Assembly: GCF_013315695.1 (NCBI RefSeq)
Contig: NZ_CP054353.1
Strand: one strand, 5' to 3'
Length of the DNA stretch: 64,000 bases
From: Escherichia coli
Lineage (GTDB): Bacteria > Pseudomonadota > Gammaproteobacteria > Enterobacterales > Enterobacteriaceae
Part shown: positions 4,497-61,753 of the stretch, in pieces
How the letters are laid out: the number at the start of each line of letters is the position of its first letter
How positions within the stretch are numbered: the first letter of the stretch is position 1
Notes under the pieces: model-generated
The model's input: the letters and a program-made list of their open reading frames with translations, nothing else
Databases searched by the model: none
Told to the model about the DNA's origin: nothing
Program-made: the position numbers and the translations under genes

Positions 4497-5042
4497 ATGA
4501 GTGCCAATGAAAACAACCTGATTTGGATCGATCTTGAGATGACCGGTCTGGATCCCGAGCGCGATCGCATTATTGAGATTGCCACGCTGGTGACCGATGC
4601 CAACCTGAATATTCTGGCAGAAGGGCCGACCATTGCAGTACACCAGTCTGATGAACAGCTGGCGCTGATGGATGACTGGAACGTGCGCACCCATACCGCC
4701 AGCGGGCTGGTAGAGCGCGTGAAAGCGAGCACGATGGGCGATCGGGAAGCTGAACTGGCAACGCTCGAATTTTTAAAACAGTGGGTGCCTGCGGGAAAAT
4801 CGCCGATTTGCGGTAACAGCATCGGTCAGGACCGTCGTTTCCTGTTTAAATACATGCCGGAGCTGGAAGCCTACTTCCACTACCGTTATCTCGATGTCAG
4901 CACCCTGAAAGAGCTGGCGCGCCGCTGGAAGCCGGAAATTCTGGATGGTTTTACCAAGCAGGGGACGCATCAGGCGATGGATGATATCCGTGAATCGGTG
5001 GCGGAGCTGGCTTACTACCGCGAGCATTTTATCAAGCTGTAA
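4497..5042 (+). CDS. orn: Oligoribonuclease
   Basis: ORF 4353..5042; conserved start [23 protein letters not shown] at ATG 4497, 181 aa, DEDDh exonuclease motifs. Confidence 0.93.
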
Positions 5043-5166
5043 AATTTTTCCTGGTCACGTAAGCGCCGGAATCCACTTGCGGCGGCGTGATTTTGACGCT
5101 AAATTGAACGTCTTGCTGATAATTTCAGCACTTGAGATAAAAACGCAAAAAAACTTTTTTGGGGGG

Positions 5167-5194
5167 TTGCAGAGGGAAAGATTTCTCGTATAAT
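5167..5194 (+). promoter_or_regulatory. Candidate sigma70 promoter of the glyVXY tRNA operon (TTGCAG, 16 nt spacer, TATAAT, GC-rich discriminator)
   Basis: TTGCAG at 5167-5172 and TATAAT at 5189-5194, followed by GCGCCTCCC; A/T-rich UP-like tract upstream; about 55 nt before the first tRNA. Confidence 0.5.
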
Positions 5195-5251
5195 GCGCCT
5201 CCCGTAACGACGCAGAAATGCGAAAATTACGAAAGCAAAATTAAGTAGTAC

Positions 5252-5327
<76 letters not shown>

Positions 5328-5363
5328 AAATTTGAAAAGTGCTGCAAAGCACAGACCACCCAA

Positions 5364-5439
<76 letters not shown>

Positions 5440-5474
5440 AAATTTGAAAGTGCTGTAAGGCACAGACCACCCAA

Positions 5475-5550
<76 letters not shown>

Positions 5551-5564
5551 AATTCTTCTCTCAA

Positions 5565-5819
5565 TAAAATATCCACAGCGACGCGATGCGTTATTGCTGG
5601 TTTTTGTTGTCTCTGACAAACTCTTGTAAACAGAGTTATCCACAGCCTCAGGCTGTAATCTTAATTTCAAAGAAACTTCGCACGGTGAATAGTATTTTTT
5701 TAACCTATTGATAGATAAGTTAAAAATTAAGATTCCGTTTTGTCGAGTCGATCACTTGACGATTTTATTCGTCTTGAATTGCAATGCGTTTTTATTTTTA
5801 TTCACAAGCTGTGGATGAA
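5565..5819. promoter_or_regulatory. datA: datA-like DnaA-titration locus: cluster of DnaA boxes with a central IHF-consensus site
   Basis: DnaA-box 9-mers ATATCCACA (5569-5577), TTATCCACA (5636-5644, perfect consensus), TTATTCACA (5798-5806) and inverted TCATCCACA (5810-5818); IHF-like TATCAATAGGTTA on the minus strand near 5701-5714. Position between glyY and queG matches where datA lies in K-12 (from memory). Confidence 0.55.
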
Positions 5820-6957
5820 TCAGGCGTCACGCGGTAACCCTTTTTCAATCACCCGAACCAGACGCTGTTTTTTCGGCAATTGCACTTCGACTATGCACGC
5901 ATTTCGTCTCTCTATTTGCTGCGCAATCGCCCACGCTATGTGCTCATCGAGAAGTGGGTGCTCACCTTTACGACTTTCCAGCGCTGTCAAAATCGTTTCA
6001 TCCCAAGGGGCATTGCCTAATGCTACGGCGATATTACGCAGCCAACGCAGGTGACCAATACGACGAATCGCCGATCCTTCCGTGACTTTTAAAAACTTCT
6101 CTTCGCTCCAGGCGAATAACTCAATGAGTTCCGGTGCGTGTAGCGGCTTACGCGGGCTGAAATCCTCTTCTGTGGTGAGTTGTGAATAGCGATTCCACGG
6201 GCAGATAAGCTGGCAGTCATCGCAACCGTAAATACGGTTTCCCATTAACGGTCGCAACTCTTCCGGGATCGCCCCTTCAAGTTCGATGGTGAGATAAGAG
6301 ATACAGCGGCGAGCATCGACGGTATATGGCTCGACGATGGCACCGGTCGGGCAAATCGTCATACAGGCCACGCATTTGCCGCATCCTTCCTCGACTGGTT
6401 GATCCACGGGCAGCGGAATATCGACCAGCAATTCGCCTAAAAAGAAGAACGAACCGGCCTCGCGATTGAGGATAAGTGAGTGCTTACCTGTCCAGCCGAG
6501 CCCAGCTTTTTCAGCTAACGGGCGCTCGAGAATAGGCGCAGAATCGACAAACGGTCTAAAATTCAGCGAAACACAATGTTGCTGAATCATCTCGCCCAGC
6601 TTTTTGAGTCGGTTGCGCAGAAGTTTGTGATAGTCACGGCCCAGCGCATAACGGCTAACATAGCCGAGTTTGGGGTTTTTCAGCGTGCTGGCAAATGCGG
6701 TGTTAGCAGGAAGGTAATTCATCCGCACGCTGATCACGCGCAGCGTACCGGGCAATAACTCATGAGGGCGAGCGCGCAGCATACCGTGACGTGCCATCCA
6801 GTCCATTTCGCCGTGGTATTGTTTGTCCAGCCATGCTTGCAGTTTGGGCTCGGACTCGCTGAGATCGGTATCGGTAATACCTACCTGCTGAAAGCCCAGT
6901 TCCAGCCCCCACTGTTTAATTTTTTGCGCTAACTGATTGAGATCGAGGGGCTCTGAC

Positions 6958-6959
<2 letters not shown>
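5820..6959 (-). CDS. queG: Epoxyqueuosine reductase QueG (YjeS)
   Basis: ORF 5820..7067; conserved start MSEPLDLNQLAQKIK at ATG 6957-6959; 4Fe-4S ferredoxin cysteine motifs (CGKCVACMTICP, CDDCQLICP); 379 aa. Confidence 0.9.
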
Positions 6960-43321: not shown

Positions 43322-43629
43322 AGATACCTCCTCGACGGCTGACTTTGTGTGCTCTCCTCTGTGATGATCTTCTGATTTAATTTTAATCAATGATAAAGAA
43401 GTTGATGGTGACCATTTCTGATGCAGTTGTTCGAAAAAACACTGTGACGGAATGTGATGAACTTCAAATCAGGGAGTTAGTTCTTTTGAGCGAAAGATGA
43501 GATTTATTTGTCGGCTGGCCTTGAGTTTAGCGGGGCATACAAGTACTATAACGCGTCATTTTTCAGCCGACCTTTAACACGTTCCTTGCCTCCCCGGGAT
43601 TCGGCTGACCCAGACAGGAGGCTGAATAA

Positions 43630-44043
<414 letters not shown>

Positions 44044-61477: not shown

Positions 61478-61654
61478 ATCTTATCCGACCTTTCAGGCCA
61501 GATCCTCGGAAGGGGAAGTTGATTAATTTGTGTGAAATACACATTGAAAGCCGATTCGAAGAAAGTGAACCGGCATTTTCAGTGGCTAGTATAGCGTAAG
61601 GTACTGTAAAGCCGCCAGAGGGTTAAAATTCAGACTGCTGATAAATGCAAAACT

Positions 61655-61753
61655 GCCTGATGCGCTATGCCGATCAGGCCTACGCACTCGTTGCAATATA
61701 TTGAATTTGGACGATTTTGTAGGCCTGGTAAGGCGTTTACGTCGCATCCGGCA
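61655..61753. repeat. REP/RIP element: inverted REP units flanking an IHF-type L motif
   Basis: GCCTGATGCGCTATGCCGATCAGGCCTAC ... TTGCAATATATTGAATTTG ... TGTAGGCCTGGTAAGGCGTTTACGTCGCATCCGGCAT. Confidence 0.65.

What the first reader, a model, noticed from the sequence alone, without database searches (positions are those of the whole stretch)
5565..5819. DnaA-box cluster with IHF site downstream of glyVXY (datA-like)
At least four DnaA-box 9-mers, including one perfect TTATCCACA, flank a WATCAAnnnnTTR IHF-type site in about 250 bp of AT-rich non-coding DNA. This is the organisation of the datA locus that promotes DnaA-ATP hydrolysis and limits re-initiation of replication.
Basis: partly seen in the sequence, partly recalled or inferred. 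Interest (0 to 1): 0.4.

Follow-up and report, generated by a model that had tools for sequence, protein, structure and literature searches.

The report
The known E. coli datA locus

Summary
Window 5565-5819 is the AT-rich (35% GC) spacer between glyY and the queG stop codon. It carries four DnaA-box 9-mers: 5569 ATATCCACA (+), 5636 TTATCCACA (+), 5798 TTATTCACA (+) and 5810 TCATCCACA (-). These flank one exact IHF consensus site, TATCAATAGGTTA, at 5701-5713 (-). No shuffle reproduced the cluster.

The stretch is 100% identical to E. coli K-12 MG1655 4392659-4392927. That is the published position of datA (94.7 min, downstream of glyV-X-Y, next to queG). The IHF site is letter for letter the published MG1655 datA IBS. 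The four 9-mers are datA boxes 1, 2, 3 and 4. Box 7 to box 3 spans 183 bp, the published minimal datA length.

So this is datA itself, not a datA-like element. Its published mechanism is IHF-dependent hydrolysis of DnaA-bound ATP (DDAH).

In 115 Enterobacterales species the architecture is almost fixed, with box 2 to box 3 at 161 bp in 93 of 115. Several conserved blocks between the IHF site and box 3 match no named site that I could verify.

Novelty: already known. Interest: low.

The parts
5252..5550 (+). glyV-glyX-glyY, three tRNA-Gly(GCC) genes. Read-through transcription from their promoter crosses datA and is reported to drive IHF dissociation.
   Evidence: ARAGORN; Rfam tRNA hits; NC_000913.3 annotation; PMC10950094.
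5562..5609 (+). Imperfect hairpin plus T-run. I take it to be the glyV-X-Y terminator/attenuator (TglyV-X-Y). It overlaps DnaA box 1.
   Evidence: RNA fold -14.3 kcal/mol, z = -2.06. PMC10950094 states that TglyV-X-Y overlaps datA box 1 and allows read-through. The exact published limits were not seen.
5569..5577 (+). DnaA box 1 (ATATCCACA, 1 misfit). Published as dispensable for DDAH.
   Evidence: A box with 0-1 misfits lies about -66/-67 from box 2 in 86 of 115 species. Dispensability: PMC10950094.
5624..5632 (+). DnaA box 7 (TTGTAAACA). Low affinity, 2 misfits to TTWTNCACA, 3 bp upstream of box 2 and in the same orientation. Published as essential for DDAH. The assignment to these coordinates is my inference.
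   Evidence: One search lists it (3 mismatches to TTATCCACA). [quoted passage not shown] 5624..5806 is 183 bp, the published minimal datA length (PMC5742627). Positions 4 and 6-9 are kept in at least 114 of 115 species.
5636..5644 (+). DnaA box 2 (TTATCCACA, perfect consensus). Essential.
   Evidence: literature.
5701..5713 (-). IHF-binding site (IBS), TATCAATAGGTTA. Essential. IHF binds here after initiation.
   Evidence: Identical to the MG1655 datA IBS in PMC4585315 Suppl. Fig. S11. The core sits at +65 from box 2 in 101 of 115 species.
5738..5761 (.). Conserved block of unassigned function, consensus TGTTA-N4-GATC(A/G)CTTGAC. It includes the only GATC (Dam site) in the spacer, at 5750-5753. 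In E. coli it can also form a hairpin at 5740-5762.
   Evidence: Conservation profile. GATC lies at +111 to +116 from box 2 in 89 of 115 species. Terminator-like hit. No covariation supports the hairpin.
5774..5797 (.). Conserved TTGAAT-NN-CAA motif followed by a T5-A-T5 tract that abuts box 3. Function unassigned.
5798..5806 (+). DnaA box 3 (TTATTCACA, which fits TTWTNCACA). Essential.
   Evidence: TTATNCACA is perfect in 106 of 115 species. It lies at +161 from box 2 in 93 of 115, and at +162 in this window.
5810..5818 (-). DnaA box 4 (TCATCCACA, inverted). Published as stimulating DDAH in vitro but not essential in vivo.
   Evidence: The CCACA half is kept in about 105 of 115 species. PMC5742627.
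5784..5837 (+). yjeV, an annotated 17-codon ORF that overlaps boxes 3 and 4 and the end of queG.
   Evidence: NC_000913.3 annotation. The start codon is not kept in more distant species (by eye).
5820..6959 (-). queG (epoxyqueuosine reductase), the flanking gene. It holds two more 1-misfit boxes at 6181-6189 (-) and 6467-6475 (-). These are candidates for the published box 5 and 'BoxN' of the original 1-kb datA fragment.
   Evidence: PMC5835720 says 'two consensus and four 1-misfit boxes'. Which box is which was not verified.

Best explanation
This is the chromosomal datA locus of E. coli, in a K-12-like strain.

**Mechanism, taken from the literature for this exact sequence.**
1. ATP-DnaA binds head-to-tail to boxes 7 and 2 on one side, and to box 3 on the other side, helped by box 4.
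2. After initiation, IHF binds the site between them and bends the DNA sharply.
3. The bend brings box-2-bound and box-3-bound DnaA together into an oligomer.
4. In that oligomer, hydrolysis of DnaA-bound ATP is stimulated. It depends on the Arg285 arginine finger and on sensor-2 Arg334.
5. ADP-DnaA is released and the site turns over catalytically. [quoted passage not shown]
6. DDAH lowers ATP-DnaA after initiation and suppresses untimely re-initiation, as a back-up to RIDA.

**Timing.** It is set by cell-cycle-specific IHF binding. Read-through transcription from the upstream glyV-X-Y promoter keeps IHF off before initiation. Negative supercoiling favours the complex.

**Shown here.** Sequence identity, the anatomy of the sites, a cluster that is not due to chance, and strong conservation of sites and spacing across Enterobacterales.

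**Taken from papers, not testable here.** DnaA and IHF binding, ATP hydrolysis and the phenotypes.
For: **Identity and position**
- 100% identity of window 5200-6100 to K-12 MG1655 and many other E. coli. It is present in 5419 of 5426 complete E. coli genomes at 95% identity or more.
- Identical to NC_000913.3 across the spacer.
- Gene order orn, glyVXY, spacer, yjeV/queG matches the published datA position.

**Sites**
- Boxes and IBS are at the expected places.
- The IBS string equals the published one.
- Box 7 to box 3 spans 183 bp, the published minimal length.
- Boxes 7, 2 and 3 are all on the + strand, as published: 'same directionality'.

**Statistics and conservation**
- The cluster was never reached in shuffles.
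- Among 115 distinct species loci, box 3 is perfect in 106, the box 2 to box 3 distance is 161 bp in 93, and the IHF core is at +65 in 101. Box 7 positions 4 and 6-9 are kept in at least 114.
- The box 2 to IBS spacer is unconserved, so the conservation is site-specific.
Against: Nothing in the sequence argues against it. Four caveats apply.

- The primary papers that print the box coordinates were not held (Kasho & Katayama 2013, Kasho 2017, Kitagawa 1996/98, Nozaki 2009). The coordinates of box 7 and of the terminator are therefore inferred from verbal descriptions.
- The comparative set was selected by requiring TTATCCACA 65-95 nt after a tRNA-Gly 3' end. Box 2 conservation is thus imposed, not measured, and species that lack it are invisible.
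- The physiological weight of DDAH is modest. Deleting datA is tolerated (PMC4585315). A strain lacking all extrinsic DnaA regulators behaves nearly normally (PMC11331064, abstract).
- The window is not exactly the MG1655 reference. Within 6 kb it has 2 SNPs and a 1-bp shorter A-run, all outside datA.
Confidence: 0.97

Rival explanations
1. The site is a passive DnaA titration sink only. The cluster would merely soak up free DnaA after it is duplicated, without catalysing ATP hydrolysis. This is the original 'DnaA titration' model that gave datA its name.
For: - The high-affinity boxes exist.
- PMC5835720 notes that datA also titrates DnaA directly, and that plasmids with a box 2 or IBS point mutation still titrate, though less.
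Against: - Reviews of the primary work report IHF-dependent, catalytic DnaA-ATP hydrolysis at datA. They also report that point mutations abolishing DDAH reproduce the deletion phenotype.
- A pure sink does not explain the order-wide fixed 161-bp spacing, the orientation of the boxes, or the conserved low-affinity box 7.
Confidence: 0.02
2. The boxes are mainly a transcriptional control region. DnaA and IHF would act as a roadblock or attenuator for glyV-X-Y read-through, or as regulators of yjeV/queG. Replication control would be secondary.
For: - Box 1 overlaps the glyVXY terminator hairpin.
- PMC10950094 reports that box 2 and TglyV-X-Y lower read-through, and that IHF bound at the IBS blocks it.
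- A conserved TTGAC motif lies between the IBS and box 3.
Against: - The same paper treats transcription as the regulator of IHF occupancy, not as the output.
- The strict sigma-70 scan found no promoter in 5000-6000.
- The yjeV start codon is not conserved in distant species, whereas the boxes are.
Confidence: 0.01
3. The DnaA-box-like 9-mers are a chance cluster in AT-rich intergenic DNA.
For: Single 1-mismatch boxes are common. There are 21 in the window against 12.6 expected. AT-rich DNA also raises the background.
Against: - 0 of 300 window shuffles reached a cluster of 4.
- 0 of 5000 composition-matched local shuffles reached 3.
- The sites and their spacing are conserved in 115 species while the neighbouring spacer is not.
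Confidence: 0

Closest known systems
E. coli K-12 datA (DnaA-inactivating locus, DDAH system; Kitagawa 1996/1998, Kasho & Katayama 2013, Kasho 2017)
   Same: Everything that could be compared matches: identical sequence, genomic position, boxes 1, 2, 3, 4 and 7, IBS string, orientations and the 183-bp core span.
   Different: Nothing within datA. In the surrounding 6 kb the strain differs from the MG1655 reference by 2 SNPs and a 1-bp indel.
oriC left DnaA-oligomerisation region (R1 - IBS - R5M and low-affinity boxes)
   Same: An IHF site lies between same-oriented DnaA boxes. IHF bending promotes head-to-tail ATP-DnaA oligomers that need Arg285.
   Different: The inter-box distance is much longer in datA. 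HU cannot replace IHF. The outcome is ATP hydrolysis, not duplex unwinding. There is no DUE, and no DnaA-ATP hydrolysis is seen at oriC.
DARS2 (DnaA-reactivating sequence 2)
   Same: A non-coding chromosomal DnaA-box cluster whose activity is gated by cell-cycle-timed IHF binding.
   Different: It has the opposite function, exchanging ADP for ATP. Its core boxes I-III are oppositely oriented, it also needs Fis, and IHF binds before initiation rather than after.
DnaA-box clusters of Bacillus subtilis and Streptomyces coelicolor
   Same: Chromosomal DnaA-box clusters that repress untimely initiation (PMC5742627).
   Different: They are not homologous in sequence or context. No IHF-dependent hydrolysis has been shown for them. 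They were not examined here.

Membership tests
datA (E. coli DDAH locus) | Lies in the intergenic region downstream of glyV-X-Y, next to yjeV/queG, at 94.7 min (4.39 Mb) of the K-12 chromosome. | tested here: met
   Window 5551-5819 equals NC_000913.3 4392659-4392927 with 100% identity. Position as stated in PMC10950094 and PMC10380432.
datA (E. coli DDAH locus) | [quoted passage not shown] | tested here: met
   5636 TTATCCACA (+) and 5798 TTATTCACA (+), both 0 misfits to TTWTNCACA. 'Same directionality' is stated in PMC5742627.
datA (E. coli DDAH locus) | A single IHF-binding site between boxes 2 and 3, with the published sequence TATCAATAGGTTA. | tested here: met
   5701-5713 (-), an exact string match.
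datA (E. coli DDAH locus) | Low-affinity 2-misfit box 7 next to box 2. Minimal functional span of 183 bp. | tested here: met
   TTGTAAACA at 5624-5632 (+), 3 bp from box 2. 5624..5806 is 183 bp. The coordinates are inferred from verbal descriptions, since the primary figure was not available.
datA (E. coli DDAH locus) | Auxiliary boxes 1 and 4 flank the core. | tested here: met
   5569 (+) and 5810 (-), 1 misfit each.
datA (E. coli DDAH locus) | Binds DnaA and IHF, and stimulates IHF-dependent hydrolysis of DnaA-bound ATP. Deletion causes untimely initiation. | not testable with these tools
   Reported for this identical sequence in papers summarised.
datA (E. coli DDAH locus) | Functional sites and spacing are conserved, while spacers vary. 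| tested here: met
   E. coli: 5419 of 5426 genomes, and PMC4585315 Table 1. Enterobacterales: 115 species.

The most novel reading that the evidence does not exclude
The part of datA between the IHF site and box 3 may contain functional sites that have not been described. Three blocks are conserved across Enterobacterales and match none of the named sites (boxes 1-5 and 7, IBS) that I could verify:
- TGTTA-N4-GATC(A/G)CTTGAC at window 5738-5761, with the Dam site at a fixed +113 from box 2
- TTGAAT-NN-CAA at 5774-5785
- a T5-A-T5 tract that abuts box 3

They could be one of three things:
- the docking site of the 'unknown factor' that the datA literature invokes for timing IHF binding and release, or for helping DnaA assembly in vivo
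- extra low-affinity DnaA contacts
- a DNA-shape element that sets the loop geometry

I could not read Kasho 2013/2017 or Nozaki 2009, so these blocks may already have been mutated or explained.
Probability: 0.2. Interest if true: 0.5.

Novelty: already known. Interest (0 to 1): 0.08.

Why it matters
The finding itself adds nothing new. datA has been studied since 1996 and its mechanism (DDAH) since 2013. What it shows is that the first-stage reader can recognise a real non-coding regulatory locus from sequence alone.

Two by-products may interest replication specialists:
- The datA architecture is almost invariant across the whole order Enterobacterales: box 7, 3 bp, box 2, IHF core at +65, box 3 at +161.
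- Conserved blocks with no assigned function sit in the IBS to box 3 arm. That is where an as-yet unidentified timing factor could act.

Tried and rejected
- **Hairpin 5740-5762.** The scan flagged it as terminator-like. I tested it as a conserved RNA or DNA structure. Only 60% of cells pair, against 58.7% in column shuffles, and there is no compensatory pattern. I rejected it as a conserved structure. The conservation is at the sequence level.
- **Box 7 placement.** I first looked for it between the IBS and box 3, for example TTATTCGTC at 5765-5773. I dropped this after PMC10950094 and PMC5835720 placed it next to box 2 and overlapping PyjeV, whose -35 lies in the glyVXY terminator.
- **Promoter scan.** The strict sigma-70 scan found nothing in 5000-6000. 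The conserved TTGAC block could not be paired with a convincing -10.
- **Rfam.** Only the three tRNAs hit in this region.
- **Primary papers.** Kasho 2013/2017 and Kitagawa 1998 are not in the library. The supplementary alignment figure of PMC4585315 is not held as text.
- **Outlier loci.** A few MAG loci labelled outside Enterobacterales matched the search pattern. L015 (Lysobacterales) lacks every other datA feature and was treated as a chance match.

Full report
**1. What is in the sequence**

Three identical tRNA-Gly(GCC) genes lie at 5252-5327, 5364-5439 and 5475-5550 (Rfam). A long - strand ORF ends with its stop codon at 5820. The finding, 5565-5819, therefore fills the 269-bp spacer between them. 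The spacer is 34.6% GC, against about 50-56% on either side.

Matches to TTATCCACA with at most one mismatch:

| Position | Strand | Sequence |
|---|---|---|
| 5569-5577 | + | ATATCCACA |
| 5636-5644 | + | TTATCCACA |
| 5798-5806 | + | TTATTCACA |
| 5810-5818 | - | TCATCCACA |

The IHF consensus WATCAANNNNTTR has one exact match here, TATCAATAGGTTA at 5701-5713 (-). It is one of only five in the 64-kb window.

**2. Is it more than chance?**

Yes.
- Single near-consensus boxes are common in the window: 21 observed against 12.6 expected.
- Four within 255 bp is not. None of 300 dinucleotide-preserving shuffles of the window gave a cluster of four.
- None of 5000 shuffles of the AT-rich spacer itself gave three or more boxes.

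**3. Identity**

- Window 5200-6100 is 100% identical to many E. coli genomes, including a K-12 MG1655 record.
- 5419 of 5426 complete E. coli genomes hold at least 80% of it at 95% identity or more.
- Against NC_000913.3, the 6 kb around the finding differ by two SNPs (window 3265 and 6701) and a 1-bp shorter A-run near 5147-5153. The spacer 5551-5819 is identical.
- For positions after the indel, window position + 4387108 gives the NC_000913.3 coordinate. The finding is therefore 4392673-4392927.
- The annotated neighbours are orn, glyV, glyX, glyY, the 17-codon yjeV (window 5784-5837) and queG (5820-6959, - strand).

**4. Match to the literature**

*Position.* datA is described as lying at 94.7 min (4.39 Mb). 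[quoted passage not shown]

*Sites.*
- The minimal region contains one IBS and four DnaA boxes. [quoted passage not shown] Box 1 is dispensable and overlaps the glyV-X-Y terminator/attenuator.
- The MG1655 datA IBS printed in PMC4585315 Suppl. Fig. S11 is TATCAATAGGTTA. That is the same string as window 5701-5713 (-).
- A scan with TTWTNCACA gives exactly that. The consensus boxes are at 5636 and 5798. The 1-misfit boxes are at 5569, 5810, 6181 (-) and 6467 (-).

*Box 7.*
[quoted passage not shown] It has the same direction as boxes 2 and 3.
- It overlaps PyjeV, whose -35 lies in the glyV-X-Y terminator.
- The only candidate is TTGTAAACA at 5624-5632 (+), 3 bp upstream of box 2. It has two misfits to TTWTNCACA.
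- From its first base to the last base of box 3 is 183 bp, the published length of minimal datA.
- This assignment is an inference, because the primary figures were not available.

The locus is datA itself.

**5. How it works (from the papers, for this sequence)**

- ATP-DnaA binds head-to-tail on boxes 7 and 2, and on box 3, helped by box 4.
- IHF binds the IBS after initiation and bends the DNA. Box-2-bound and box-3-bound DnaA then contact each other.
[quoted passage not shown] The Arg285 finger, Arg281 and Leu290 are needed for the interactions. Sensor-2 Arg334 is needed for hydrolysis.
- ADP-DnaA leaves and the site acts catalytically.
- HU cannot replace IHF.
- Timing comes from IHF occupancy. 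Read-through transcription from PglyV-X-Y is needed to keep or take IHF off before initiation. Bound IHF in turn blocks that transcription. Box 2 and TglyV-X-Y set the basal read-through level.
- Negative supercoiling favours the complex.
- Proximity to oriC gives early duplication of the locus.
- Deleting datA causes untimely initiation but is tolerated.

None of these biochemical steps can be tested with the tools here.

**6. Independent comparative evidence made here**

One scan of species-representative genomes searched for a tRNA-Gly 3' end followed 65-95 nt later by TTATCCACA. Nearly all are from Enterobacterales: Salmonella, Citrobacter, Klebsiella, Enterobacter, Serratia, Yersinia, Erwinia, Pantoea, Dickeya, Edwardsiella, Hafnia and others.

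After re-registering some Pantoea-type loci, where box 1 had been caught instead of box 2, 115 distinct sequences remained.

| Feature | Result in 115 species |
|---|---|
| Box 3 fits TTATNCACA perfectly | 106 |
| Box 3 at +161 from box 2 | 93 (all but three within 159-162; E. coli is +162) |
| IHF core on the - strand at +65 | 101 (C4, A5, T12 kept in at least 112; full consensus with at most 1 mismatch in 75) |
| 9-mer at the box 7 position | T-T-(G/T)-T-N-A-A-C-A, positions 4 and 6-9 kept in at least 114 |
| Box 1 with 0-1 misfits at about -67 | 86 |
| CCACA half of box 4 | about 105 |

The 55 bp between box 2 and the IBS show almost no conservation. The signal is therefore site-specific and is not general similarity.

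One caveat applies. Box 2 and its distance from the tRNA were imposed by the search, so species without them are not represented.

**7. Things not explained by the named sites**

The conservation profile shows further blocks between the IBS and box 3:
- 5738-5761, with order-wide consensus TGTTA-N4-GATC(A/G)CTTGAC. The GATC lies at +111 to +116 from box 2 in 89 of 115 species.
- TTGAAT-NN-CAA at 5774-5785.
- A T5-A-T5 tract that runs into box 3.

In E. coli the first block can form a 9-bp hairpin followed by a T-rich run, which the scan flagged as terminator-like. Across species the pairing is no better than in column shuffles (60% against 58.7%), and there are no compensatory changes. The constraint is therefore on the sequence, not on a fold.

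No strict sigma-70 promoter was found. I could not check whether the inaccessible primary papers already dissected these blocks. The datA literature still invokes 'unidentified factor(s)' for DnaA assembly in vivo and for IHF timing. These blocks are where I would look.

**8. Verdict**

- Observation: confirmed.
- Interpretation: supported. The locus is datA itself.
- Novelty: already known.
- Interest: low. A small residue of interest attaches to the order-wide rigidity of the architecture and to the unassigned conserved blocks.

Noticed in passing
window 5738-5761, 5774-5785, 5789-5797: Three sequence blocks between the datA IHF site and box 3 are conserved across about 115 Enterobacterales species. 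They match no named datA site that I could verify. They are TGTTA-N4-GATC(A/G)CTTGAC, TTGAAT-NN-CAA, and a T5-A-T5 tract abutting box 3.
   Followed up: partly
window 5750-5753: The only GATC (Dam site) in the spacer sits at a nearly fixed distance from box 2, +111 to +116, in 89 of 115 species.
   Followed up: partly
window 5740-5762 (+): An E. coli hairpin of 9 pairs with a 5-nt loop, followed by TTTTATT, was flagged as terminator-like. It shows no covariation in other species, so it is probably incidental or lineage-specific.
   Followed up: yes
window 5636-5806 and loci L002-L121: The box 2 to box 3 start-to-start distance is 161 bp in 93 of 115 species. E. coli and a few others have 162. 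This rigidity across the order fits the published sensitivity of datA function to spacing.
   Followed up: yes
window 5147-5153, 3265, 6701: The window is not exactly the MG1655 reference. It has an A7 run instead of A8 upstream of the glyV-X-Y promoter region, plus two SNPs: 3265 A for G, and 6701 T for C in queG.
   Followed up: partly
window 6181-6189 (-), 6467-6475 (-): Two further 1-misfit DnaA boxes lie inside queG (CTATTCACA and TTATCCTCA). They are probably the published box 5 and 'BoxN' of the original 1-kb datA fragment. Which is which was not verified.
   Followed up: no
window 5784-5837 (+): The annotated 17-codon yjeV overlaps boxes 3 and 4 and the 3' end of queG. Its ATG is replaced by ACG or AGG in many distant species while the boxes stay. 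Its conservation therefore looks like a by-product of datA.
   Followed up: partly
window 43566-43650 (+), 56845-56967 (+), 61539-61596 (-), 61676-61717 (-): Rfam gathering-score hits elsewhere in the window: RpsF leader, ES239 sRNA, STnc450 sRNA and ES036 (CssrF) sRNA.
   Followed up: no
L015 (Lysobacterales MAG): A locus labelled outside Enterobacterales matched the search pattern. L015 has no other datA feature and is probably a chance match.
   Followed up: partly
L014, L032 ('Proteobacteria' MAGs): These two loci, labelled only as 'Proteobacteria', carry the full enterobacterial architecture. They are probably coarsely classified or mis-binned Enterobacterales.
   Followed up: partly
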